From contig JAHFNS010000001.1 in assembly GCA_023267215.1 (NCBI GenBank), positions 174,710-238,709 of the forward strand: a stretch of DNA of 64,000 bases. Direction: 5' to 3'. This DNA comes from Candidatus Nomurabacteria bacterium (GTDB lineage Bacteria; Patescibacteriota; Minisyncoccia; Phycocordibacterales; UBA9973). The notes beneath the pieces were generated by a model, which was given only the letters and a program-made list of their open reading frames with translations, did no database searches and was not told the origin of the DNA. The translations under genes were made by a program, and so were the position numbers. Positions 1 through 41,044 of the stretch are shown here, piece by piece (within the stretch, counting starts at the first letter, position 1; each line of letters begins with the position of its first letter).

Positions 1-13
1 TATTCCTGAATTT

Positions 14-1438
14 TTAATAACCTTCTATAAACCTATATAGAAGTCTGACTGGAGTGCCTAGGGCGCCGCCTGCGAGGTTTTCGCCTTGTATTGCAGTCAT
101 ACGAGGGGCCATGTCTATGTGTATCCATTTATGACCTTTTATGAATTGGTAGAGAAAAATAGCTGCATAGATAGCTCCGCCATATCCCCCATCTTTATTT
201 TTAACATTCGTCCAATCCCCGAGCGAACCTTTGATTTCATTTTCATATTCTTCCCACATAGGCAATCTCCAAACATAATCCCCTGTCTCTTCTCCAGCTT
301 TTTCTATTGCTTTAGATAAATTGTCATCATCAGTAAAAATTGCCGAAGCTCTCTCGCCAAGTGCGACCATCGCAGCACCAGTCAAAGTCGCAATGTCTAT
401 AACGACTTCTGGTTTATATTTTTGAGAATAAGTTAATGCATCAGCTAAGATGACTCTGCCTTCGGCATCAGTATTTAAAATCTCAATCGTTTTACCGGAC
501 ATTGAGCGAATGACATCTCCTGGACGATAACTTTTCCCCGATGCCATATTTTCAACGGCCGGTATGAGCCCGATGACATTCTTTTTCAATTTCATTTTTG
601 CAACCAGAGCGAGGGTGTGGATGACAGCGGCACCACCAGACATATCCATATTCATACCGAGAAGACTATTTGAGGGTTTCAAATTTATTCCTCCAGTATC
701 AAATGTCACACCTTTGCCGACGAGGACAATAGGTTTCTCATTTTTCTTTCCGCCAGCGTATTCCATAATGATAAATTTAGATTCTTCGTCTGAACCACGG
801 CCGACAGAAAGTATCGCTCGCATTTTTTGCTTTTCCATTTCTTTTTCACCAAGTACAGTGACTTTCACAGGTAGATTTTTTACGGCTTCTTTTGCTTTTT
901 GCGCCAAAATTTGAGGAGTCATATCTCCACCTGGCATATTTGCAAGTGTCCTAGTCTTGTTCACTTCTTCTGCAATAGTGTGGCCTTTAAGAATGGATTT
1001 TTCAATATCCCCGAAAGACGGTCTTTGAGGAGTTCCCAAAAGACCGTCTTTGGGAGAATCTATACCAGAAATAATAATTTCTTTTACAAAATTAAAACCT
1101 TCTTCTGTCGGTGTTTTATATTCCACAAATTCATAATTTGCAAAATCTAGTTGAGAACCGATGAGTTCTCCCAATTCTGTATCTGTTAATTTAATATTTT
1201 TAAATTTAAAATCAGAAAAATCAAAAGCAATCTTTTCCGCTTTTATTCCTTTTGCCATTGTCACCATTTTACGGACAAGCAAAAAAAGCTTTCTCAAAGT
1301 CATTTTCTCATCGCATTTCAAAAAGAATGTTTTTGCACCATTTTCTTTTATAATCTCATCTTTATTTTTAGAACCGACAGATACAAAAAGAACTTCTCCT
1401 TTTACATCTTTTGGGTTGTTTTTAAATGCTATTTTCAT
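14..1438 (-). CDS. pepA: Leucyl aminopeptidase, M17 family
   Basis: 474 aa; M17 signature NTDAEGRL region (ILNTDAEGRVILADALTY) and conserved C-terminal catalytic domain. Confidence 0.85.
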   Translation of the reverse strand: MKIAFKNNPKDVKGEVLFVSVGSKNKDEIIKENGAKTFFLKCDEKMTLRKLFLLVRKMVTMAKGIKAEKIAFDFSDFKFKNIKLTDTELGELIGSQLDFANYEFVEYKTPTEEGFNFVKEIIISGIDSPKDGLLGTPQRPSFGDIEKSILKGHTIAEEVNKTRTLANMPGGDMTPQILAQKAKEAVKNLPVKVTVLGEKEMEKQKMRAILSVGRGSDEESKFIIMEYAGGKKNEKPIVLVGKGVTFDTGGINLKPSNSLLGMNMDMSGGAAVIHTLALVAKMKLKKNVIGLIPAVENMASGKSYRPGDVIRSMSGKTIEILNTDAEGRVILADALTYSQKYKPEVVIDIATLTGAAMVALGERASAIFTDDDNLSKAIEKAGEETGDYVWRLPMWEEYENEIKGSLGDWTNVKNKDGGYGGAIYAAIFLYQFIKGHKWIHIDMAPRMTAIQGENLAGGALGTPVRLLYRFIEGY

Positions 1439-1442
1439 ATTT

Positions 1443-2792
1443 TTAAAATCCTTCTTCTGTTAATCTTTCATCTATTCTATTCATATCTCGTGGAAACATA
1501 CAAGCTTCACGAATATTTTTTAGACCTAAAAGTTGCATAGTGATACGTTCAGCTCCAAAAGCAAAACCTCCTTCAGGCGGAACTCCATATTTGAAAGCTT
1601 CAAGAAACATTTTTATTTTAGCCGGATCCATTTTCCAAATTTTTACATGCTCCATGAGCTGGTCATAATCATTGATTCTGCGTCCACCAGAGAGCCATTC
1701 TACTCCACGACAAATGAGATCCACGCCTTCATTGTATTCTGGCTCTTCTTTACTTGGATAAATGTAAAATGGTTTTTTTAGTGTTGGATATCCGTAAATA
1801 AATACGAAATCCGAACCAGTCTCTTCTTTTATTATTTCACAAATTTGTCTTTCATCTTCTCCGTTTGTATCTTTTTCTCCACGAACATCACGACCAAATT
1901 TTTCAAAAATCTTTTGTTGAACTTCTCTTAAAGAAAGTGTTGGCGTTTTGTCTGTCATTGTCGGAAGAGTAACCCCTAACAATTTCAAATGTTCTTTGTT
2001 TTTTGTCTCTACTTGTTTCAAAATGTATCTTACTGTTTCTTCAGCCATATCTCGCACATCTGTCCATGAATCAATGAAGGCCATCTCTGCATCAAGTGAA
2101 ACCACTTCCGTCAAATGTCTAGTGGTTGAAGATGGCTCTGCGCGGAAAACTTTATTCACAGAAAAAACTCTTTCAAATGCTGACATCACGATTTGTTTGT
2201 AAAGTTGAGGAGATTGAGAAAGAAAAGCTTTTTTATCAAAATAATCAATCTTAAAAACTTCTGCTCCTCCTTCGGCAACAGCTGGAGATATACTAGGAGC
2301 TTGAAATTCAAAAAACATATTCTTTTTCATAAATTCCCTGAAAGCATCTATTACTGTTTCCTGTATTTTGAAAATTGCTTGTATTTTTGGTTGTCTTAAA
2401 ACTAACGCTCTATTATCAAGTTCTGCGGTCAACTCTAGATTATACCCACCAAGAGACATATCAAAAGGAAGAGGTGCTGCTTCGGATAAAATTTCAATAT
2501 TTAAAATTTCAAGTTCTATGTCGCCATTTAATACATCTGCTTTCACATTTCTCTCTGGACGCTTGTTTACTAAACCAGTGATCTTGAGAACCCATTCGAG
2601 TCTGATTTCTTTTGATTTTTCAATAACTTCCACATGAGAAGGTAATGCAACTACTTGCACTTTACCTGTCATATCTCGCATATCAAAAAATACCATTTTG
2701 CCTTGATCACGACGGACATCTACCCAGCCAGCTATGATGACTTCTTTGCCAACATTGTCTTTCAAATCTTTAATATAAATCCTATTTTTCAT
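1443..2792 (-). CDS. aspS: Aspartyl-tRNA synthetase, class IIb, short archaeal/non-discriminating type (AsnRS not fully excluded)
   Basis: 449 aa; N-terminal OB anticodon-binding domain; motif 2 FRAEPSSTTRHLTE; motif 3 GGFAFGAERI; GGRRINDYDQL resembles the AspRS-type GGxRIH segment rather than AsnRS GGSQREER. Confidence 0.8.
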   Translation of the reverse strand: MKNRIYIKDLKDNVGKEVIIAGWVDVRRDQGKMVFFDMRDMTGKVQVVALPSHVEVIEKSKEIRLEWVLKITGLVNKRPERNVKADVLNGDIELEILNIEILSEAAPLPFDMSLGGYNLELTAELDNRALVLRQPKIQAIFKIQETVIDAFREFMKKNMFFEFQAPSISPAVAEGGAEVFKIDYFDKKAFLSQSPQLYKQIVMSAFERVFSVNKVFRAEPSSTTRHLTEVVSLDAEMAFIDSWTDVRDMAEETVRYILKQVETKNKEHLKLLGVTLPTMTDKTPTLSLREVQQKIFEKFGRDVRGEKDTNGEDERQICEIIKEETGSDFVFIYGYPTLKKPFYIYPSKEEPEYNEGVDLICRGVEWLSGGRRINDYDQLMEHVKIWKMDPAKIKMFLEAFKYGVPPEGGFAFGAERITMQLLGLKNIREACMFPRDMNRIDERLTEEGF

Positions 2793-2820
2793 ATAAATAT
2801 TCTATCATATATTGAAAATA

Positions 2821-2856
2821 AAAAAAGCGGAGAATATGATGGGTCCCCGCTTTCTT
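2821..2856 (-). terminator. Intrinsic terminator (minus-strand stem AAAGCGGGGA...TCTCCGCTTT followed by a T-run), 28 nt upstream of the aspS start
   Basis: GC hairpin plus a run of 7 T on the minus strand, read directly from the sequence. Confidence 0.6.
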
Positions 2857-3300
2857 AATTTACCCTTTCCTTTATTAAGAAGGGTTTTAAAATTTATCAA
2901 TAATTTTTAAAAGCGGATTGCTACGTGGCTCTGCAGGAAGCCACTTTCCACTTATTTCTCTTATGCATCGGCTTTTTCCCCAATCAGGGTTAACACCGAT
3001 AAATTTGTTTTTTAAAGTCAGGAATTTTCTTCCTGATTTTGTGGCTTCTGCAAGCCACTTTAAACAATTCTCTAGGTCGCCACTGGCGACTTGGGAATCA
3101 CAAGAATTAGACATAAGAACTCCTTATAAAATTGATAAAATATTTAAAACAGTAAGGAACTATTACCCTCAGACCCAAATTTCATTTATTATTTGGGACT
3201 GGTGTGTATGTTTCTAGAAAACTGAGAGCACACACATCAGACTCAAACGCAAAACTGACTTCGATTTTATTCGGAGCCAGTTTTGTTTTTGTATTATTTC
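2857..3300 (-). ncRNA. GC-rich structured island upstream of aspS: candidate cis-regulatory leader or small structured RNA; the alternative reading is a 75-aa ORF at 2887..3114
   Basis: Local GC is about 45% against ~30% background. Two related hairpins occur (GTGGCTTGCAGAAGCCAC and GTGGCTTCCTGCAGAGCCAC), plus a GTCGCCACTGGCGAC hairpin and a GGTGTGTATG...CACACACATCAG hairpin. An upstream CCGCTTTT could pair with the terminator 5' arm as an antiterminator alternative. I could not match it to the RNase P, tmRNA, SRP or T-box consensus by eye. Confidence 0.3.
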
Positions 3301-3447
3301 AATTTTTCCAATTTATACAAAAGCAAATGGCTCCTTCTTAATGAGGGTGAGAATAAAGAGAACATTAATTTGTATATTTCTTAATTTCATAACTATATAA
3401 ACATATTAGCATAAAAAATAGAAACAACAACACACCTGTGGAAAACT

Positions 3448-4125
3448 CTAGACTTTTTCTACATTGAGCACTCTTCCATTTTTATCTAAAGAAACACAAA
3501 ATCCTTCTAAAAAATCGTAAGGCTTGATTTTCCAATCATAGTTTTTTATAAAAATATTTGCATTTTCAATCTTCATGTCATTTAAAAATAAAATTTCAAA
3601 AAATTTCATTACAAAAGCATGACTAATACAGACAGAACCATTGGGAATTTTTTTAAGTTTCTTGAAAAAAGAATCTATCCTCGCTATAACATCATTTACT
3701 TTCTCCTCATTTTTATCTTCCACAATACTTTTTACCACATTTTCACGCAATAAATTTACATTGAAATCTTTATTTTCTGGTGTAACAAAATTAGCTACTG
3801 AAAATTTAATTTCCTTTAATTCTGGTAAAATTTTTATGGGTAAATCAAAAAGCTTAGCTGTCTGTACGCAACGAGACACTGGCGAAGATAGGATATATTT
3901 AATTTTAAAATTTTTCTTTAAATTCTTAACTCTTTTAATTGTTTTTTCTGTATTCGTATCTAACAATGGATCATTTAACTGTAAACCATTTAAATCAAAA
4001 CTAGAAATCAAATCCATCCCTGGTATTAGGTCTAGATATATTGCTGGTCTTAAAAATAGTATTTTTTTCATAATTTTAATAAAGAAGCAGAGAAAATTTT
4101 CTCTGCTTAATAATTTAATAAACAA
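3448..4125 (-). CDS. Hypothetical protein with weak histidine-phosphatase-superfamily resemblance (degenerate RHG motif)
   Basis: 225 aa; SSPVSRCVQTAKLF resembles SSPLxRAxQTA and ISHAFVMKFF resembles the second His motif, but the N-terminal R-H-G is LRPA (no catalytic His). Confidence 0.4.
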   Translation of the reverse strand: MFIKLLSRENFLCFFIKIMKKILFLRPAIYLDLIPGMDLISSFDLNGLQLNDPLLDTNTEKTIKRVKNLKKNFKIKYILSSPVSRCVQTAKLFDLPIKILPELKEIKFSVANFVTPENKDFNVNLLRENVVKSIVEDKNEEKVNDVIARIDSFFKKLKKIPNGSVCISHAFVMKFFEILFLNDMKIENANIFIKNYDWKIKPYDFLEGFCVSLDKNGRVLNVEKV

Positions 4126-4786
4126 TTACTTCTAATTTTTGTCTATTTTGAGCTAAAAAAGAATGATTTTTTGTTATTCCTCTCAAATTTTCAGTTGCAT
4201 AATTCATAAGAATTTTCTTATTCATTTCATACATGATTTCTCTCAAAAGTATGTATTGAGCATAATGTCTAATTTGAAGTTTGCTTGTTTCTTCTATACT
4301 CAATTCTCTATTATACTGCAAAGAATATCTCTCTTTCCTTTTTTCCTGATAAAGAAGAAAAAAATAATTTAATTCAGAATCTGTGGGTAAAGAATCTCTT
4401 ATTTTGTCTTCTAGCTCATATTGACGAATATGCCAATTTTTAAACTGATTACTAAACAAAGAAACTTTTCCTTTAATATCTTGACTTAAAATTTCTTGAC
4501 TAAACTTAATTTCAGAGGTTTTTATATTGTCTCTTGGAAAATCAATGAAAATATCTTCCTCTGTATCGGCTATTAGAAATATAAAGAAGTTTTTTGGATA
4601 TTTACTTTGAACTTCTGACACTGCCTGAAGAGCTGAAATCATAAGAGAAGAAACACCATCAGAAATTCCCCCAGGAATATAATCTGGACAAAGTGGAACA
4701 AAAATTTCATTTCCATCTTCTAATATTTTTGGAAGCCTTCTCGAGGCTTCTTGTTTTTGAAAAGAAAAAATCTTGTTACTTATCAT
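4115..4786 (-). CDS. Hypothetical protein
   Basis: 223-aa ORF, no recognisable motifs; ends overlap the downstream ORF, suggesting an operon. Confidence 0.5.
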   Translation of the reverse strand: MISNKIFSFQKQEASRRLPKILEDGNEIFVPLCPDYIPGGISDGVSSLMISALQAVSEVQSKYPKNFFIFLIADTEEDIFIDFPRDNIKTSEIKFSQEILSQDIKGKVSLFSNQFKNWHIRQYELEDKIRDSLPTDSELNYFFLLYQEKRKERYSLQYNRELSIEETSKLQIRHYAQYILLREIMYEMNKKILMNYATENLRGITKNHSFLAQNRQKLEVIVY

Positions 4787-4849
4787 TCTGTAGTCCCTCC
4801 TAGGACTTTTTTAACTAATTAATTTTTAAAGAACAAAATACTCTCTCCT

Positions 4850-4881
4850 TCTGCTATCATGTACTAGTACATGATAGCAGA
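4850..4881. promoter_or_regulatory. Perfect 32-bp palindrome TCTGCTATCATGTACTAGTACATGATAGCAGA; candidate operator
   Basis: Perfect inverted repeat with a core GTACTAGTAC that resembles trp-operator CTAG half-sites. It lies between the TrpR-like gene and the 4115..4786 operon and has no flanking T-run, so it is unlikely to be a terminator. Confidence 0.45.
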
Positions 4882-4945
4882 AGAAAAAAGTAATGCAAGT
4901 GCATTTTATATAAAAACTGTGGATAACCCACAATCTCTTTTTTTA

Positions 4946-5233
4946 TTATTTACTTAATTTTTTTAACACTAAATGAAAACCCCCATTTTTATTACGAAGT
5001 TCGCGAGACCCTCTAGTGACCGTGCTTATACCAATACCTAAATCCCCTGCTATGTCTCTATGTTTCTCGTTTTTGTTAAGCCTCTTCACTATTTGCCATC
5101 TTATACAAATTTCATCAAATTCTGCAGGTGTCAAAATATCTCTCAAAAATTCAAATATTAATTCCTTATCTGTAGAAATTTTTGAAAAAACTTCTATAAT
5201 CTCCTTTTTGTATTGTGCGGAATTTTTTTTCAT
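4946..5233 (-). CDS. TrpR-like DNA-binding protein, YerC/YecD family
   Basis: 95 aa; RWQIVKRL...DIAGDLGIGISTVTRGSRELR matches the TrpR/YerC helix-turn-helix core. Confidence 0.7.
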   Translation of the reverse strand: MKKNSAQYKKEIIEVFSKISTDKELIFEFLRDILTPAEFDEICIRWQIVKRLNKNEKHRDIAGDLGIGISTVTRGSRELRNKNGGFHLVLKKLSK

Positions 5234-5236
5234 TTT

Positions 5237-6244
5237 TTAAAAATAATCAATCTTGATAGCTTTTTTAACTTTAGCCATTGTCTTTTTAGCTTCTTCTCTT
5301 GCCTTTTTTGTCCCATCTTCTAAAATCTTCATAACCTCTTCTGGGTGCTTTTCGAATTCTTTTCTTTTTTCACGAATTGGTTTAATTAATTTTTCTAAAA
5401 CCTCTATCAATCTTTTCTTAATAACAACATCTCCTAAACCACCCTTTTCATATTGCTTTTTTAATTCTAGAACTTCTTCTTTATTTTCATCAAAAATATC
5501 TAAATAAGTAAAGACAATATTTCCTTCTACTTTACCTTTATCTTCCACATGAATGTGGTTCGGGTCAGTATACATATTCATAACTTTTTTTGAAATTTCA
5601 TCATAACTATCTGAAAGATAAATACCATTATTAAGAGATTTACCCATTTTAGAATTTCCATCAGTGCCAATTAACCTCGGGATATCTCCCACTAAATGCT
5701 TTACACGTTTAAATGTTTCTCCGTAGAAACGATTGAAGTCGTCCACAATTTCATTCACTTGTTCAATAACTGGTAATTGATCTTCACCGACTGGAATTAA
5801 ATTTGATTCTGCAAAAAGAATATCCGCTGCTTGAGAAACAGGATAAGTTAAAAATCCAGCGGGAACATCTTCTCCATACCCTTTGTCTTTCATTTCACTT
5901 TTTACAGTCGGGTTCCTCTTCAATCGAGCAAGTGTCACCAAATTTAAAAACAAAACTGTAAGCTCTGCAATTTCTGGAATTTCTGATTGAATAAACATAA
6001 TAGTTTTTTTAGGGTCAAGACCACAAGCCAGATTATCAAGGGCAACTTCTAAAACATTTGCTCTAACTTTTTCTGGATTTTGTGCATTATCGGTAAGTGC
6101 TTGAATATCCGCAACCATATAAAAAGATTTATCGGCTTCATCTTGAAGTTTAACTCTATTTCTTATAGACCCGACAAAATGACCCAAATGGAGTTTACCC
6201 GTTGGGCGATCACCCGTGAGCACTATTTTTTCATCTTTTACCAT
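5237..6244 (-). CDS. trpS: Tryptophanyl-tRNA synthetase
   Basis: 335 aa; class I HIGH motif (TGDRPTGKLHLGHFVG) and KMSKS motif (KMGKS); size typical of TrpRS. Confidence 0.9.
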   Translation of the reverse strand: MVKDEKIVLTGDRPTGKLHLGHFVGSIRNRVKLQDEADKSFYMVADIQALTDNAQNPEKVRANVLEVALDNLACGLDPKKTIMFIQSEIPEIAELTVLFLNLVTLARLKRNPTVKSEMKDKGYGEDVPAGFLTYPVSQAADILFAESNLIPVGEDQLPVIEQVNEIVDDFNRFYGETFKRVKHLVGDIPRLIGTDGNSKMGKSLNNGIYLSDSYDEISKKVMNMYTDPNHIHVEDKGKVEGNIVFTYLDIFDENKEEVLELKKQYEKGGLGDVVIKKRLIEVLEKLIKPIREKRKEFEKHPEEVMKILEDGTKKAREEAKKTMAKVKKAIKIDYF

Positions 6245-6335
6245 ATAAATATATTACCATATTTGTCCCCATTTTAATAACATATTTAATAACTTTTCGT
6301 CTTTGACTATTTTTTTAAAGTGCTAGAATAACCAA

Positions 6336-7730
6336 ATGATAAAAGCAAAAAAAGATATAAATATACGTATTCCTCCTCAAAATATACCTTCTGAGCAGGC
6401 AGTGCTTGGTTCTATAATGCTCCGCAAAGATGCTATCCATGAAGTAGAAGATGTGATCACTCCAGATTCTTTTTACGTTGAAAAACACAAAATAATTTTC
6501 AGAGCAATGCTTGACCTCTCTCTTAAAAATGAACCAATAGATATGCTTTCTCTTTCTACAAAATTAGGTGAACAGAAAGTTTTAGAAAGAATTGGGGGTA
6601 ATCAATATTTAGCAGAAATAGCAAATATTGTCCCTTCTTCTGTAAATGTAAAACACTATGCCGAAATTGTACAAAAAAAATACGTTTTAAGAAGTTTAAT
6701 AGAAGCAGCAGATTATGTATCTGAACTTGGTTTTGAAGAAGGTGATGACCATATGGATGACATTTTAGATATGGCAGAAAAAAGAATTTTTAGCGTGATC
6801 TCTTCTCCTAAAAATCAAAAATATACGAATTTAAAAGATGCCTTACCTGAAGCATGGGAACGTCTTGAAAAATTACATGAACACAAAGGAGCTCTCAGAG
6901 GATTGCCGACTGGTTTCAAAGATTTGGATAGTACTCTTTCTGGTTTACAAAAGTCTGATCTAATTATTTTAGCCGCTCGTCCTTCTATGGGTAAAACGAC
7001 TCTGGCACTCGACATCGCTCGTATGTCTTCTGTTGTTCATGATAAATCTGTTTTAATTTTTTCCTTAGAAATGTCTTCTCAACAATTAGTAGATAGAATG
7101 CTTTCAGCACAATCTCGAGTAAATGCTTGGAACTTACGTACTGGACATTTGTCTTCTGATAGAGATTTTTCTCAACTTCGAGATTCATTAGATAAACTTG
7201 CTAAAGCAAAAATATATATTGATGATCAACCTGGCAATTCTATCGTTCGAATGAAAGCTCTTGCTCGCAGATTAAAAGCTGAAAAAGGATTGGATCTTAT
7301 AATCGTAGATTACTTACAACTTATGACTACTTCTAAAAATTATGATTCTATGGTCAATCAAGTGACAGAAATTTCAAGATCTTTAAAGAGCCTAGCAAAA
7401 GAACTCGATGTGCCCGTGCTCGCCCTCTCGCAGCTTTCTCGTGCTGTGGAATCTCGTGGAGGCAAACCAAGACTATCCGATCTTCGTGATTCAGGATCTA
7501 TCGAGCAGGATGCCGACGTCGTGATGTTTATTCATAGAGAAGATAAAGGCAAAGACGAATCTGAGAAAACAAACATTGCTGAAATATTGATTGAAAAACA
7601 CAGAAATGGTCCTACTGGTAAAGTTGATCTTTACTTTGATGAAAAAACAACTACCTTCTTAAATCTTGAAAAAAGTAGCTTGAGTGAATTTACCCAACCA
7701 AAAGTTAGTGGAGAGTTGGATGAGTTTTAA
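6336..7730 (+). CDS. dnaB: Replicative DNA helicase DnaB
   Basis: 464 aa; N-terminal DnaB domain, Walker A ARPSMGKTTLALDIA, conserved VPVLALSQLSR and DADVVMFIHR motifs. Confidence 0.95.
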   Translation: MIKAKKDINIRIPPQNIPSEQAVLGSIMLRKDAIHEVEDVITPDSFYVEKHKIIFRAMLDLSLKNEPIDMLSLSTKLGEQKVLERIGGNQYLAEIANIVPSSVNVKHYAEIVQKKYVLRSLIEAADYVSELGFEEGDDHMDDILDMAEKRIFSVISSPKNQKYTNLKDALPEAWERLEKLHEHKGALRGLPTGFKDLDSTLSGLQKSDLIILAARPSMGKTTLALDIARMSSVVHDKSVLIFSLEMSSQQLVDRMLSAQSRVNAWNLRTGHLSSDRDFSQLRDSLDKLAKAKIYIDDQPGNSIVRMKALARRLKAEKGLDLIIVDYLQLMTTSKNYDSMVNQVTEISRSLKSLAKELDVPVLALSQLSRAVESRGGKPRLSDLRDSGSIEQDADVVMFIHREDKGKDESEKTNIAEILIEKHRNGPTGKVDLYFDEKTTTFLNLEKSSLSEFTQPKVSGELDEF

Positions 7731-7740
7731 ATAAATAATT

Positions 7741-8373
7741 ATGAACACAATAGAAAGATTAACTGAAGTATTTAAAGAATTTCCAGGTATTGGGGAGAGA
7801 CAAGCAAAACGCTTTGTTTACTTTTTAATGTCTCGAGATGGAAGCTATTCTGACAATCTATCTAGTCTAGTGAAAGAATTAAAAAAGGAAGTATCTCAAT
7901 GTAAAGAATGTTTTAAATTTTTCCTTTTAGACTCAAACAATAAACTTTGCGAAATCTGCAGAGACCCAAATCTAGACTCTTCTGTACTTATGGTCGTCGA
8001 AAAAGATTCTGATTTAGAAAGTATGCATAAAAGTAGAATATATAATGGCAAATATTTTATCCTGGGAGGACTCGTGCCGATCGTGGAAAAAAATACAAAT
8101 TCAAGAATCAGAGTAAATGGACTTATAGAAAAAATAAAACGTGATTCAAAAGCCACACCAGAGGACGGACAAGCCTTAAAAGAAATTATTCTGGCTTTTT
8201 CATTGAGCCCTCAAGGCAACCATACAGACTTTTATATTCGCAACCAATTAAAACCCATCATTGAACCATTGGATATAAAAATTTCATCTTTGGGTAAAGG
8301 CCTCTCCACTGGCACCGAGCTCGAATACTCAGACAACGACACCCTCAAAAACGCTCTCAAAAATAGGCAATAA
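7741..8373 (+). CDS. recR: Recombination protein RecR
   Basis: 210 aa; HhH N-terminus, C4 zinc finger CKECFKF...CEIC, Toprim domain. Confidence 0.9.
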   Translation: MNTIERLTEVFKEFPGIGERQAKRFVYFLMSRDGSYSDNLSSLVKELKKEVSQCKECFKFFLLDSNNKLCEICRDPNLDSSVLMVVEKDSDLESMHKSRIYNGKYFILGGLVPIVEKNTNSRIRVNGLIEKIKRDSKATPEDGQALKEIILAFSLSPQGNHTDFYIRNQLKPIIEPLDIKISSLGKGLSTGTELEYSDNDTLKNALKNRQ

Positions 8374-8377
8374 AAAA

Positions 8378-8398
8378 TCCCGGAAACTAGTTCCGGGG
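8378..8398. terminator. Bidirectional hairpin CCCGGAAACTAGTTCCGGG between recR and the convergent ORF
   Basis: Perfect stem with A/T-rich flanks on both sides. Confidence 0.5.
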
Positions 8399-8401
8399 AA
8401 A

Positions 8402-8704
8402 TTAACTTTTGTAAAAACAAATATAACTGGCTACAAAAGTATCTACTTTTATATACACTTCAGTGCCAGATTTTACTATAAACTCTTGGTCAGTAAGAAG
8501 TAGCACTTCATTGTTGACTTTAAACATACCCGATGTTGCTTTCAACACCACTTCTTTTGAACTCATCTTTCCAAAAGGATAACTCCCAGGAAGTATAGTA
8601 CCAATAGAAATAATCTTTCTTCCATTTTCATCTACTACTTCAATGGTATCTACATTTCGTTGTCCTTCAAAATGAAGGACCCTAGGTATAGAAATATACT
8701 CCAT
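8402..8704 (-). CDS. Hypothetical protein
   Basis: 100-aa ORF between the rplU terminator and the recR terminator; no motif recognised; not L27. Confidence 0.45.
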   Translation of the reverse strand: MEYISIPRVLHFEGQRNVDTIEVVDENGRKIISIGTILPGSYPFGKMSSKEVVLKATSGMFKVNNEVLLLTDQEFIVKSGTEVYIKVDTFVASYICFYKS

Positions 8705-8801
8705 TTTTTACCTCGCTCTTTGTTTAAAAAACATTTAACTAAATTCATGAACTAATATGATTTAGTAATAACATAAACACAAGAAAAAGTCTATTAAAAA
8801 A

Positions 8802-8832
8802 TAAAAACACCCCTTACGGGGCATTTTTATTT
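8802..8832 (-). terminator. Intrinsic terminator downstream of rplU (CACCCCTTACGGGGCA hairpin plus T-run)
   Basis: Hairpin plus T-run readable on both strands. Confidence 0.6.
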
Positions 8833-9144
8833 TATATCTAAGATTTTTACTTTAAAGAATGGCTGACGGTGACCGTTTCTTTTGAGATAACGTGATTTTT
8901 GTTTATATTTGACAACCATAACTTTCCTAGTACGGCCGATTTGGACGAGCTCCGCTTCGACACTTGCCTCTTTTATATAAGGTGTACCGATAGTGGTATT
9001 TTTCCCATCATCAACTAAGAGGACTTTGTCAAAGGAAATCTTGTCTCCGACTTTGTATTCCCCCTTCATTTTCTCAACAGAAACAACGCTGTCTTTTGAG
9101 ACTTTATACTGCTTTCCACCTGTTTGTATAACTGCAAATTTCAT
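8827..9144 (-). CDS. rplU: 50S ribosomal protein L21
   Basis: 105 aa; MKFAVIQTGGKQYKV N-terminus characteristic of bL21. Confidence 0.9.
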   Translation of the reverse strand: MKFAVIQTGGKQYKVSKDSVVSVEKMKGEYKVGDKISFDKVLLVDDGKNTTIGTPYIKEASVEAELVQIGRTRKVMVVKYKQKSRYLKRNGHRQPFFKVKILDIK

Positions 9145-14085: not shown

Positions 14086-14123
14086 ATGTGGATAACTGCC
14101 CCTAAGCTGGGCTTAGGGGCACT
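14086..14123. repeat. DnaA-box-like TGTGGATAA followed by palindrome GCCCCTAAGC-TGG-GCTTAGGGGC (member of the CCTAAGC palindrome family)
   Basis: Perfect 10-bp stem; near-identical copy at 41006..41044 with an inverted loop; sits at the 3' end of Cys-rich paralog 1. Confidence 0.6.
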
Positions 14124-41005: not shown

Positions 41006-41044
41006 ACTGTGGATAACTGCCCCTAAGCCCAGCTTAGGAGAGAT
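41006..41044. repeat. CTGTGGATAACTGCCCCTAAGC-CCA-GCTTAGGAG (DnaA-box-like motif plus CCTAAGC palindrome) at the 5' side of paralog 7
   Basis: Near-identical to 14086..14123 with the loop inverted. Confidence 0.6.

What the first reader, a model, noticed from the sequence alone, without database searches (positions are those of the whole stretch)
4850..6244. TrpR-like (YerC/YecD) regulator next to trpS, with a perfect 32-bp palindrome containing GTACTAGTAC
A 95-aa TrpR-fold protein (4946..5233) lies immediately downstream of trpS (5237..6244) on the same strand, 4 nt apart, so they are probably co-transcribed. Just beyond it is a perfect 32-bp palindrome TCTGCTATCATGTACTAGTACATGATAGCAGA (4850..4881).

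The central CTAG flanked by GTAC echoes the CTAG-centred half-sites of the E. coli trp operator (GTACTAGTT/AACTAGTAC). No T-run follows, so it is unlikely to be a terminator.

In an organism without Trp biosynthesis genes nearby, a TrpR-like protein co-transcribed with trpS and a TrpR-like operator could be a minimal tryptophan-sensing circuit. It might control the downstream 4115..4786 and 3448..4125 operon, or autoregulate.
Basis: partly seen in the sequence, partly recalled or inferred. Interest (0 to 1): 0.5.

Follow-up and report, generated by a model that had tools for sequence, protein, structure and literature searches.

The report
Tryptophan-repressor operator in a Nomurabacteria genome
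The palindrome is very probably the DNA site where the neighbouring tryptophan-repressor-like protein binds, placed on the promoter of the next two genes, so this tiny uncultured bacterium appears to use an E. coli-style tryptophan switch to control two genes of unknown function.

Summary
A perfect palindrome (36 bp, 4848..4883) lies 63 nt beyond a 95-aa Trp_repressor-family gene that follows trpS.

Its 14-bp core ATGTACTAGTACAT, with conserved flanks, occurs in the same place in all 26 related Candidatus Nomurabacteria/Paceibacterota genome loci and in 36 metagenome loci. It always sits 16 bp after a conserved TTGCAT and overlaps a TGnTAYYAT extended -10. That places it on the -10/start site of a promoter pointing at the downstream genes.

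In most relatives the site is followed by a leader peptide with tandem Trp codons and a terminator/antiterminator. In several relatives trpB, trpE or trpDC come next.

Operator variants co-vary with repressor residues: GCAC with Ile69-to-Met, and ATAC with loss of Arg59, which aligns with E. coli TrpR Arg69. Distantly related TrpR genes in other lineages carry the same motif on their own promoters.

The window has no leader. The operator directly precedes a 223-aa protein with a cyclodipeptide-synthase/aaRS-like predicted fold and a histidine-phosphatase homologue that lacks its first catalytic His. This gene pair is linked to a TrpR-family gene in three different genomic contexts.

Binding, tryptophan dependence and the start site are inferred, not shown. 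The protein is closer to true TrpR than to YerC/YecD. A secondary terminator role in this genome is not excluded.

The parts
5237..6244 (-). trpS (tryptophan--tRNA ligase), 335 aa. First gene of the trpS-trpR pair.
   Evidence: TIGR00233 268 bits, PF00579. The dnaB(divergent)-trpS-trpR synteny is kept in 22 of 26 genome loci.
4946..5233 (-). TrpR-family repressor, 95 aa. It starts 3 nt after the trpS stop codon.
   Evidence: PF01371 59.4 bits; TIGR01321 47 bits (below cutoff); TIGR02531 29 bits (below cutoff). The helix GIGISTVTRGSREL aligns to E. coli GAGIATITRGSNSL. 426 homologues, the best 120 listed at 66-86% identity; 32 invariant columns in an alignment of 34.
4917..4927 (-). GTTATCCACAG, a DnaA-box-like motif conserved upstream of the promoter. 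Function unknown.
   Evidence: Present at about 8 or 19 nt upstream of the -35 in nearly all loci. Three exact TTATCCACA sites in the window.
4884..4904 (-). Small hairpin ATGCAcTTGCAT followed by TACTTTTTT. Likely terminator of trpS-trpR. Its 3' arm is the -35 hexamer TTGCAT (4898..4893) and the T-run is the promoter spacer.
   Evidence: TTGC is almost invariant at -33..-30 from the palindrome centre. The upstream arm changes to keep pairing in L012, L013 and L018, read by eye from the sequences. The MFE fold shows the hairpin.
4871..4879 (-). Extended -10 element TGCTATCAT (family consensus TGnTAYYAT), 16 bp after TTGCAT. It forms the outer left arm of the palindrome.
   Evidence: Gapless alignment anchored on the CTAG centre, with information profile.
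4848..4883 (.). 36-bp perfect palindrome, the proposed TrpR operator. The conserved 28-bp element is 4852..4879 and the 14-bp core ATGTACTAGTACAT is 4859..4872. The predicted transcription start is about 4864..4866 on the - strand.
   Evidence: Conserved in 27 of 27 genome loci and in 36 TrpR-linked metagenome loci. Co-variation with the repressor.
4819..4860 (-). 13-codon mini-ORF MIAEGESILFFKN* starting at the ATG in the right arm (+6). A remnant of the leader-peptide start, with no Trp codons.
   Evidence: Read. In L001, L007, L010, L016, L017 and L023 the ATG at the same position opens an ORF in frame with the tandem Trp codons.
4828..4840 (-). TATTTTGTTCTTT, a U-rich tail. It matches the terminator tail TTTTTGTTCTTTG of the attenuators in relatives.
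   Evidence: The scan tool calls hairpin plus tail terminator-like.
4792..4807 (-). 5'-UTR hairpin AGTCCTAGGAGGGACT containing the Shine-Dalgarno GGAGGG of the 223-aa gene.
   Evidence: Fold. A nearly identical UTR occurs in L014 before an unrelated gene.
4115..4786 (-). 223-aa protein of an uncharacterised family with a cyclodipeptide-synthase / class-Ic aaRS / isonitrile-synthase-like predicted fold. First regulated gene.
4085..4108 (-). Hairpin AAGCAGAGAAAATTTTCTCTGCTT between the two regulated genes.
   Evidence: (I9).
3448..4071 (-). His_Phos_1-family protein (207 aa from the ATG at 4071) lacking the RHG catalytic histidine (LRPA). Second regulated gene.
   Evidence: PF00300 47 bits, matching profile positions 21-165 only. 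Alignment with partner proteins and a canonical RHGE member.

Best explanation
The palindrome is the operator of the adjacent TrpR-family repressor. It overlaps the -10 element and start site of the promoter that drives the next two genes: the 223-aa CDPS/aaRS-like protein and the His_Phos-like protein.

Proposed mechanism: trpS and the repressor gene are transcribed together from a separate promoter that has no operator. When tryptophan is plentiful, the Trp-loaded repressor binds the CTAG-centred palindrome and blocks RNA polymerase. Two dimers probably share the central CTAG, as in E. coli tandem binding. When tryptophan is scarce, the repressor leaves and the two genes are expressed.

Most relatives add a second layer, a trpL-like leader peptide with tandem Trp codons plus a terminator/antiterminator. 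This genome has lost that layer and kept only the repressor layer.

Shown: the sequence features, their conservation, their position relative to promoter elements, the linked genes, and the co-variation.

Inferred: physical binding, tryptophan as co-repressor, the transcription start, and the direction of regulation.
For: 1. Conservation. The element TGYTAYYATGTACTAGTACATRRATACA is present in 26 of 26 related genome loci plus the window. It lies 54-88 nt after the trpR stop in 25 of them. In L026 it lies further downstream, directly before trpDC-trpF-trpB. Information content drops to background on both sides of the element.

2. Promoter geometry. TTGCAT at -33..-28, a T-rich 16-bp spacer and TGnTAYYAT at -14..-6 are at a fixed distance from the CTAG centre. 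Relatives with other operator variants have TTGACT or TTGCTT at equivalent spacing. In 6 of 8 relatives (the window left out) that have an ATG at +6, that ATG opens the leader ORF in frame with the Trp codons. This fits a start site at the palindrome centre.

3. Tryptophan link.
- 20 of 24 loci (with L026 scored separately: 21 of 25) encode a leader MKNNFKxNKxxKSWWGAK... after the operator; in two of them (L004, L024) the second Trp codon is CGG.
- RNAalifold's consensus is the antiterminator.
- The 1:2 and terminator helices are 90% paired against 39-53% in slid controls.
- Genes after the module include TrpB, TrpE, TrpG, an IGPS-like gene and TrpDC-F-B.

4. Repressor residues. Equivalents of E. 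coli Thr44, Arg54, Arg69, Ile79, Thr81, Thr83, Arg84 and Gly85 are present in the window's protein; Thr35, Arg45, Arg59, Thr71, Arg74 and Gly75 are invariant in the alignment of 34 homologues, while Ile69 and Thr73 vary there.

5. Protein-DNA co-variation.
- All three genome loci with ATGCACTAGTGCAT (L011, L012, L024), plus L147, have Ile69-to-Met. All 23 others have GTAC with Ile, Val or Leu.
- L150 and L152 have ATACTAG half-sites and carry His or Gln in place of Arg59. Arg59 aligns with E. coli Arg69, the residue that contacts the G of GTAC.

6. Independent association.
- Four loci from unrelated lineages (GC 0.35-0.61, TrpR 30-49% identical) carry the same motif on their own trpR promoter or start.
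- 40 of 120 metagenome hits to the 18-mer have a TrpR-family ORF beside it.

7. Target linkage. The CDPS-like / His_Phos pair lies next to a TrpR-family gene in three different neighbourhoods, each with a CTAG operator upstream.
Against: - There is no experimental evidence for binding, effector or transcription start.
- Ser88 of E. coli TrpR, a ligand contact, is Glu here. The protein is below the NCBIfam TrpR cutoff.
- The window's operator has a single CTAG rather than the two CTAGs 8 bp apart of canonical operators. The outer half-sites match the E. coli consensus poorly.
- Each co-variation case may be a single evolutionary event.
- In the window the palindrome is far more symmetric and more stable as RNA (-29 kcal/mol against -5 to -17 in relatives). 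It is followed by a U-rich tail. It may therefore also, or instead, terminate trpS-trpR transcripts.
- The regulated genes have no known role in tryptophan metabolism.
Confidence: 0.8

Rival explanations
1. The palindrome is primarily an intrinsic terminator (RNA hairpin plus U-rich tail) that ends the trpS-trpR transcript. Its resemblance to a trp operator is incidental.
For: On the - strand the hairpin (up to 25 pairs with G-U) is followed by GUAUUUUGUUCUUU. The scan tool lists it as terminator-like. RNA MFE of the intergenic region is -57.7 kcal/mol, z = -8. The window's hairpin is much stronger than in relatives.
Against: - Relatives conserve the sequence, not hairpin strength: 14 invariant bases, stems of only -5 to -17 kcal/mol and no adjacent U-run.
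- In L026 the element is not next to trpR at all but directly before the trp genes.
- Two smaller terminator-like hairpins already follow trpR.
- A terminator would not co-vary with residues of the repressor's recognition helix.
- A secondary terminator role in this one genome remains possible.
Confidence: 0.07
2. The site is a real operator for the TrpR-like protein, but the effector is not tryptophan. It could be another indole compound or the product of the CDPS-like enzyme. The logic may then be induction rather than Trp-dependent repression.
For: The position aligned with Ser88, a ligand contact in E. coli TrpR, is Glu78 here; Glu78 is invariant in the 34-sequence alignment but Met, Ala or Phe in some relatives. 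The protein is below the TrpR equivalog cutoff. In this genome the targets are not Trp-biosynthetic genes. No trp genes lie in the 64-kb window.
Against: The same operator and repressor control trpB, trpE and trpDC in close relatives, and are paired with a tandem-Trp leader peptide. Equivalents of Arg54, Arg84, Thr44 and Gly85 are invariant. The gene is welded to trpS.
Confidence: 0.08
3. The palindrome acts at the RNA level in the 5' UTR of the downstream operon, affecting stability or translation, or it is bound by some other protein or is a remnant of a mobile element.
For: Symmetric double substitutions (GTAC to GCAC on both arms) also preserve an RNA hairpin. The transcription start is only predicted.
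Against: - The fixed -35 / extended -10 geometry puts the start inside the palindrome, so the left arm would not be transcribed from this promoter.
- The element is unique in the window and is not flanked by repeats.
- Its association with TrpR-family genes holds across unrelated lineages and arrangements.
- There is no Rfam match.
Confidence: 0.05

Closest known systems
E. coli TrpR repressor with the trpEDCBA, aroH and trpR operators (PDB 1TRO; tandem half-site complex 1TRR)
   Same: - Same Pfam family. The recognition helix is nearly identical (GIGISTVTRGS against GAGIATITRGS).
- The operator core GTACTAG/CTAGTAC overlaps the -10 region and start site.
- Both half-site variants seen here, ATGTACTAG and ATGCACTAG, also occur in the E. 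coli aroH operator (from my own knowledge).
- Relatives L148, L150 and L152 have two CTAGs 8 bp apart, as in E. coli.
   Different: - The window and most Nomurabacteria have a single central CTAG (ATGTACTAGTACAT). That corresponds to the 'half-site' DNA bound by two tandem dimers, not to the canonical 18-bp site.
- The protein has no long N-terminal arm (95 aa) and has Glu at the Ser88 position.
- The gene is fused into an operon with trpS and lacks its own operator.
- The targets in this genome are not biosynthetic genes.
E. coli-type trp operon dual control (TrpR repression plus trpL leader-peptide attenuation)
   Same: Relatives have the operator on the promoter, then a short ORF with tandem Trp codons overlapping segment 1. 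They also have 1:2, 2:3 and 3:4 alternative helices and a U-run.
   Different: The window has lost the leader peptide and the alternative helices; only the start of the ORF and the U-rich tail remain. No match to any Rfam family, which would include a Trp-leader model. The lineage is the Candidate Phyla Radiation, where I found no published description.
Chlamydia trachomatis trpRBA (a TrpR gene physically linked to the genes it controls)
   Same: A small-genome bacterium in which trpR sits immediately upstream of its regulated genes, with an intergenic regulatory region between them (abstracts listed, PMC7755916).
   Different: In Chlamydia the TrpR operator is at the promoter upstream of trpR (autoregulated) and the intergenic region is controlled by YtgR. 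Here the operator lies in the intergenic region downstream of trpR, and trpR appears unregulated.
YerC/YecD family (TIGR02531; PDB 3KOR, 3G1C, 3FRW)
   Same: Same TrpR fold and similar length. The best single PDB sequence hit is the TrpR-like protein 3g1c (E 5.7e-6).
   Different: Scores 29 bits against a cutoff of 42 on the YerC/YecD model, and lower than on the TrpR model. No function or operator is known for YerC/YecD (from my own knowledge).
Cyclodipeptide synthases and IsnA/PvcA isonitrile synthases (for the regulated 223-aa protein)
   Different: Only 7-15% identity. No Pfam hit to any family, CDPS included, and no PDB sequence hit. An invariant PLCPDY motif puts a Cys where, by my reading, CDPSs have the catalytic Ser. 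The protein is always paired with a His_Phos homologue lacking its first catalytic His.

Membership tests
TrpR family (Pfam PF01371 Trp_repressor) | Domain match above Pfam's gathering score | tested here: met
   59.4 bits against 27; residues 20-93 match profile positions 13-87 of 88.
TrpR, trp operon repressor equivalog (NCBIfam TIGR01321) | Score above the curated equivalog cutoff | tested here: not met
   47 bits against a cutoff of 67.25, although the match is full length, 1-91 of 94.
TrpR, trp operon repressor | Conserved co-repressor pocket and DNA-contact residues (E. coli Thr44, Arg54, Arg69, Ile79, Thr81, Thr83, Arg84, Gly85, Ser88) | tested here: inconclusive
   Eight of nine are present in the window's protein; six of these (Thr35, Arg45, Arg59, Thr71, Arg74, Gly75) are invariant in the 34-sequence alignment, Ile69 and Thr73 vary. 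The Ser88 position is Glu78. The residue roles come from my knowledge of the 1TRO/2OZ9 literature, not from a tool.
TrpR, trp operon repressor | Operator with CTAG-centred GNACTAG half-sites overlapping the regulated promoter | tested here: met
   GTACTAGTAC core at -5..+5 of a TTGCAT-16-TGnTAYYAT promoter, in 27 of 27 loci.
TrpR, trp operon repressor | Two CTAG cores 8 bp apart (canonical 18-bp operator for one dimer) | tested here: not met
   The window has one CTAG, and no CTAGnnnnCTAG occurs anywhere in the window. The feature is met in relatives L148, L150 and L152.
TrpR, trp operon repressor | Tryptophan-dependent binding to the operator | not testable with these tools
   Needs EMSA or ITC. 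Indirect support comes from Trp leader peptides and trp genes downstream in relatives.
YerC/YecD family (NCBIfam TIGR02531) | Score above the curated cutoff | tested here: not met
   29.3 bits against 42.2.
Intrinsic (Rho-independent) terminator | Stable hairpin immediately followed by a U-tract on the transcribed strand | tested here: inconclusive
   The consensus scan lists it (20 pairs, 6 G-C, tail GTATTTTGTT). The U-tract is interrupted and adjoins the stem only if G-U pairs extend it.
Intrinsic (Rho-independent) terminator | Hairpin strength and U-tract, rather than sequence, conserved in orthologous positions | tested here: not met
   Relatives keep the 14-bp sequence but fold at only -5 to -17 kcal/mol, against -29 in the window, and lack the tail.
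Leader-peptide transcription attenuator (trpL type) | Short ORF with tandem regulatory Trp codons plus mutually exclusive terminator and antiterminator helices | tested here: not met
   The window has only a 13-codon ORF without Trp and no alternative helices. The feature is met in 21 relatives, two of which keep only one Trp codon.
Cyclodipeptide synthase family (for the 223-aa protein) | Sequence-profile membership | tested here: not met
   No Pfam family at E<=0.01. No PDB sequence match at E<=10.
Cyclodipeptide synthase family (for the 223-aa protein) | CDPS / class-Ic aaRS Rossmann-type fold | tested here: met
Cyclodipeptide synthase family (for the 223-aa protein) | Catalytic Ser after strand 1, and aminoacyl-tRNA use | not tested
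   No residue-level structural alignment was available. The invariant Cys33 in PLCPDY follows strand 27-32. Its equivalence to the CDPS Ser is my inference.
Histidine phosphatase superfamily branch 1 (for the 207-aa protein) | Pfam match and catalytic RHG histidine | tested here: inconclusive
   PF00300 47 bits against 21.7, but only profile positions 21-165 match. The N-terminal motif is LRPA in place of RHGE in the four close partner proteins (L019, more distant, has ITSA); the second His (ISHAF) is kept.

The most novel reading that the evidence does not exclude
The repressor, the CDPS/isonitrile-synthase-like enzyme (invariant Cys in PLCPDY) and the catalytically altered His_Phos partner form a conserved, mobile three-gene module. 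An ultra-small, probably Trp-auxotrophic symbiont switches this module on when tryptophan runs out. The module would carry out a so far unknown tRNA- or amino-acid-dependent reaction, for example making a small molecule that signals to or extracts tryptophan from the host, or a new salvage step. The Nomurabacteria locus would then be a Trp-starvation regulon whose cargo has been exchanged repeatedly behind an E. coli-like repressor-plus-attenuator control region.
Probability: 0.3. Interest if true: 0.8.

Novelty: new member of a known kind. Interest (0 to 1): 0.55.

Why it matters
Almost nothing is known about gene regulation in Candidate Phyla Radiation bacteria, which cannot be grown alone.

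This locus offers a readable and testable circuit: a repressor, its operator, the promoter and, in relatives, a classic Trp attenuator. Parts of it resemble the best-understood system in bacterial genetics closely enough that the protein and DNA could be tested directly in E. coli.

It also assigns a physiological cue, tryptophan shortage, to two uncharacterised protein families and to a variable set of genes in organisms thought to depend on hosts for amino acids. Finally, it gives natural operator/repressor variant pairs (GTAC/Ile, GCAC/Met, ATAC/His-Gln) that bear on how TrpR reads DNA.

Tried and rejected
- Rfam searches of six related loci (gathering thresholds) and of window 1..9000 (E<=0.01) found nothing, including no Trp-leader or T-box match.
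- A literature search for the core sequence and for TrpR/operator/CTAG gave nothing useful. Searches for TrpR in Patescibacteria/CPR gave only a passing remark on trp repressor genes next to TrpRS-A operons.
- The idea that the motif is a repeated element was rejected. There is one copy in the window, and weaker matches are at chance level.
- The idea that the motif is frequent elsewhere was tested with an 18-mer scan of metagenomes.
  - 80 of the 120 hits have no TrpR ORF nearby. They have mixed GC (0.25-0.69) and mostly look like chance or unrelated sequence.
  - The 40 hits with a TrpR ORF all have the motif beside it.
- Autoregulation was rejected. There is no ACTAGT/GTACTAG site between dnaB and trpS or elsewhere near the operon.
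- tblastn with the 223-aa protein did not detect the 'CPDY' proteins of L005, L019 and L023. A profile did detect L019 (2e-12) and L023 (1e-5) but not L005.
- A profile search of PDB sequences with the 223-aa family found nothing. The afdb50 fold library was unavailable.
- An assembly artefact as the origin of the palindrome was rejected. Independent assemblies reproduce it, and L152 shares the flanking synteny.
Full report
**1. The observation**

Window 4850..4881 reads TCTGCTATCATGTACTAGTACATGATAGCAGA and is a perfect palindrome. Two more pairs extend it to 36 bp, 4848..4883.

- It has no second copy in the window, even with three mismatches, and none of 100 shuffles produced a match.
- Matches to the 14-bp core with three mismatches occur only about as often as chance allows.
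- It is the longest inverted repeat in the 64 kb.
- Two independent Logan assemblies of the same organism end inside it. This reproduces the sequence and shows that it breaks de Bruijn assemblies.

All genes here are on the - strand:
- trpS, 6244..5237.
- A 95-aa Trp_repressor-family gene, 5233..4946, starting three bases after the trpS stop codon.
- A 223-aa ORF, 4786..4115.
- A His_Phos_1 ORF, most likely starting at the ATG at 4071 and ending at 3448.

**2. The regulator**

The 95-aa protein matches Pfam Trp_repressor well above threshold. Among NCBI's models it scores higher on TrpR (47 bits) than on YerC/YecD (29 bits), though both are below their cutoffs.

The pairwise alignment with E. 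coli TrpR pairs the helix-turn-helix GIGISTVTRGSREL with GAGIATITRGSNSL. From my knowledge of the TrpR structures, the following equivalents are present:
- Ligand-pocket residues Thr44, Arg54, Arg84 and Gly85.
- DNA-contact residues Arg69, Ile79, Thr81 and Thr83.
- Ser88 is Glu here.

The family is large and very conserved. A search returned 426 homologues, the best 120 at 66-86% identity, and an alignment of 34 has 32 invariant columns. Members come from Candidatus Nomurabacteria, Paceibacterota and Patescibacteria assemblies.

**3. Conservation of the palindrome**

In 26 genome loci found through the protein, the order dnaB (divergent) - trpS - trpR - variable stretch - aspS is kept. Twenty-five loci carry TGYTAYYATGTACTAGTACATRRATACA 54-88 nt after the trpR stop. 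The twenty-sixth, L026, carries it further downstream, directly before trpDC-trpF-trpB.

A gapless alignment anchored on the CTAG centre shows three features at fixed distances:
- TTGCAT at -33..-28.
- A T-rich 16-bp spacer.
- TGnTAYYAT at -14..-6.

This is a -35 element and an extended -10 element pointing away from trpR. It places the predicted start site at the centre of the palindrome, about window 4865 on the - strand. Information content falls to background beyond +14. The left arm is therefore constrained both as a -10 element and as part of the site, which explains why the flanks are only partly symmetric in most genomes.

The TTGCAT is also the 3' arm of a small hairpin followed by the T-run. 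Its 5' arm changes in a compensating way in several loci (L012, L013, L018; read). This hairpin is a likely terminator for trpS-trpR.

**4. The link to tryptophan**

After the operator, 20 of 24 loci scored encode a short peptide of the form MKNNFKxNKxxKSWWGAK..AFA..C; L026, read separately, makes it 21 of 25. In L004 and L024 the second Trp codon is CGG (SWRG). The two Trp codons abut a G+C-rich segment.
- RNAalifold on 18 leaders returns the antiterminator, segment 2 paired with the 5' arm of the terminator.
- The alternative 1:2 helix and the terminator helix are 90% paired, against 39-53% in slid controls, and show changes on both sides of some pairs.

This is the architecture of the E. 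coli trp attenuator.

In six of the eight relatives that have an ATG at +6 in the right arm (the window left out), that ATG opens the leader ORF in frame with the Trp codons. This fits a transcript that starts at the palindrome centre.

The genes that follow the module vary:
- TrpB (L001).
- TrpE (L002).
- An IGPS-like gene, TrpE and TrpG (L009).
- TrpDC-TrpF-TrpB (L026).
- PRPP synthetase in six loci.
- Several unknown genes.

A metagenome scan adds further cases of TrpB, TrpE and TrpDC.

**5. Evidence that the repressor reads this DNA**

*Co-variation.*
- The three genome loci whose core is ATGCACTAGTGCAT (L011, L012, L024) are exactly the three whose repressor has Met instead of Ile at position 69, which aligns with E. 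coli Ile79. The other 23 have GTAC with Ile, Val or Leu.
- The only Met69 protein among the stored hits (P0104) also has ATGCACTAGTG downstream.
- L150 and L152 have operators built from ATACTAG half-sites. Their repressors have His or Gln in place of Arg59. Arg59 aligns with E. coli Arg69, which contacts the G of GTAC (my knowledge).
- Each case may be a single evolutionary event, so this is suggestive rather than statistical proof.

*Independent association.*
- An 18-mer scan of metagenomes returned 120 loci. Forty have a TrpR-family ORF beside the motif.
- Thirty-six of these are of the Nomurabacteria type. In 34 the motif centre lies 54-98 nt beyond the end of the trpR reading frame, stop codon included; in two it lies 815 nt beyond.
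- The other four come from unrelated lineages (GC 0.35-0.61, TrpR 30-49% identical). There the motif sits on the promoter or start of trpR itself. One has TTGACA-17-TATTAT and one has a tandem pair of sites.
- The remaining 80 hits have mixed composition and look like chance or unrelated sequence.

**6. Operator architecture**

The window and most relatives have one central CTAG. L148, L150 and L152 have two CTAGs 8 bp apart (GTACTAGTATACTAGTGA, ATACTAGTATACTAGTAT, ATACTAGCATACTAGTAT), which is the canonical E. coli spacing.

From my knowledge of the tandem-binding model and the 1TRR complex, a single GTACTAGTAC is a shared half-site for two dimers centred 4 bp to each side. The conserved G at -13 and -5, and C at +5 and +13, fall where the Arg69 contacts of two such dimers would be. 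This is inference.

**7. What is special about the window**

The window has no Trp leader. The ATG at +6 opens only a 13-codon ORF, MIAEGESILFFKN (4860..4819). The operator is followed directly by TATTTTGTTCTTT, which matches the terminator tail of the relatives. Then comes a hairpin containing the ribosome-binding site (4792..4807) and the 223-aa gene. Four relatives are also leaderless (L008, L009, L013, L019).

The window's palindrome is symmetric over 18 positions per arm and folds at -29 kcal/mol as RNA. Relatives fold at -5 to -17 kcal/mol. With G-U pairs the stem reaches the U-rich tail, and the scan tool calls it terminator-like. A secondary role as a terminator for read-through from trpR is therefore possible in this genome. 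It cannot be the conserved function.

No operator-like site lies upstream of trpS, and no trp biosynthetic gene lies in the 64 kb.

**8. The regulated genes**

*The 223-aa protein.*
- It has no Pfam or NCBIfam match. It has 13 close homologues and 67 distant ones without annotation.
- There is no sequence-level match to any solved structure.
- An invariant PLCPDY motif follows the first strand. I infer, but did not test, that its Cys occupies the place of the CDPS catalytic Ser.

*The partner.*
- It is a His_Phos_1 homologue whose first catalytic motif RHG is replaced by RPA in every close partner.

*Linkage.*
- The pair lies next to a TrpR-family gene in three different neighbourhoods, each with a CTAG operator upstream.
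  - One has the window's synteny (L152).
  - One lies after MurB with trpR upstream (L150).
  - One lies after Thy1 and a peptidase with trpR downstream (L148).
- More distant family members, each with a His_Phos-like partner, follow the operator in L019 and L023.

Function remains unknown. The linkage says these genes belong to the repressor's regulon.

**9. Comparison with known systems, and novelty**

Mechanistically this is a TrpR repressor/operator of the E. coli kind. In relatives it is combined with a trpL-type attenuator.

It differs in several ways:
- Lineage: the Candidate Phyla Radiation.
- The dominant single-CTAG operator form.
- Fusion of the repressor gene to trpS, without autoregulation.
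- The cargo under control.

I found no published description. The nearest is a remark that trp repressor genes accompany TrpRS-A operons in some CPR genomes (PMC5370408). I file it as a new member of a known kind. A more novel open question is attached: what a Trp-starved symbiont does with a CDPS-like enzyme.

**10. Verdict**

- About 0.8 that the palindrome is the TrpR-family operator controlling the downstream two-gene operon.
- About 0.7 that tryptophan is the co-repressor.

Binding, effector, start site and the function of the targets all need experiments.

Noticed in passing
window 4917-4927, 3436-3446, 14086-14096, 41007-41017 (all - strand); L001-L026 about 8 or 19 nt upstream of TTGCAT: The motif GTT(A/T)TCCACAG, containing a perfect DnaA box TTATCCACA, is conserved just upstream of the Trp-regulated promoter in nearly all loci. 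It also follows the His_Phos stop codon, before another promoter-like TTGTTG-16-TGcTAATAT. It lies 3 nt before two ATGs, preceded by CTTAGGGGCA. Its role is unknown: a promoter-upstream element, a DnaA site or something else.
   Followed up: partly
L001-L026 and L027-L146, the gene between dnaB and trpR: trpS comes in two forms at the same position. The window type is 62-83% identical (L005, L006, L019, L030, L033). Most loci have a form only 33-39% identical, while the neighbouring dnaB stays 79-92% identical. This suggests in-place displacement of the synthetase gene.
   Followed up: no
L026 4300-4490: Between trpR and the Trp module lies a second module. It has the promoter TTGCAT-17-TATAAT, a short ORF MKLQRSNNFFFFFFSPNLRGQIFAL with six consecutive Phe codons, and a strong hairpin. 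It looks like a Phe-type leader-peptide attenuator.
   Followed up: no
L004, L005, L011, L012, L024, about 30-120 nt after the attenuator terminator: A further conserved block (GTTTGTGAAAACTTT ... AAATTCTCAGGTGAnGGAATCTACCT ... AAGTGG) precedes small Trp-rich ORFs (MWEAGYEP..., MWGASDEQ...). It may be another RNA element. There is no Rfam match.
   Followed up: no
window 3448-4071 (-); L148 3728-4372; L150 3732-4358; L152 3742-4374: The His_Phos_1 partners of the CDPS-like gene all have F(L/I)RPAPY where canonical members have RHGE. The phospho-acceptor histidine is therefore missing, while the later ISHAF histidine is kept. This may be a pseudo-enzyme or a changed chemistry.
   Followed up: partly
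window 4085-4108: A 24-bp palindrome AAGCAGAGAAAATTTTCTCTGCTT lies between the CDPS-like and His_Phos genes. It is terminator-like on the - strand and shares GCAGA with the outer arms of the main palindrome.
   Followed up: no
window 4792-4807; L014 about 660-700: The 5'-UTR hairpin AGTCCTAGGAGGGACT, which buries the Shine-Dalgarno sequence, is nearly identical in L014. There it precedes an unrelated 427-aa gene. The regulatory and UTR cassette seems to be reused in front of different cargo.
   Followed up: no
L154 end (4015) and L155 end (2235): Short-read assemblies from two sequencing runs both stop inside the palindrome. Long perfect palindromes like this one fragment such assemblies, so linked genes will often be split across contigs.
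   Followed up: yes
L150 2700-2760; L148 2600-2640; L152 2800-2830: Relatives with two CTAGs 8 bp apart include a 34-bp perfect palindrome, ATATCACCATACTAGTATACTAGTATGGTGATAT, in L150. Their repressors have His or Gln where the window's has Arg59, which aligns with E. coli Arg69. Their half-sites begin with A instead of G.
   Followed up: partly
L039 about 1740-1800: A high-GC (0.61) unrelated lineage has two tandem copies, CATGTACTAGTACATG ... CTGTACTAGTACATG, just upstream of its own divergent TrpR-family gene. The single-CTAG operator form is therefore widespread beyond the Candidate Phyla Radiation.
   Followed up: no
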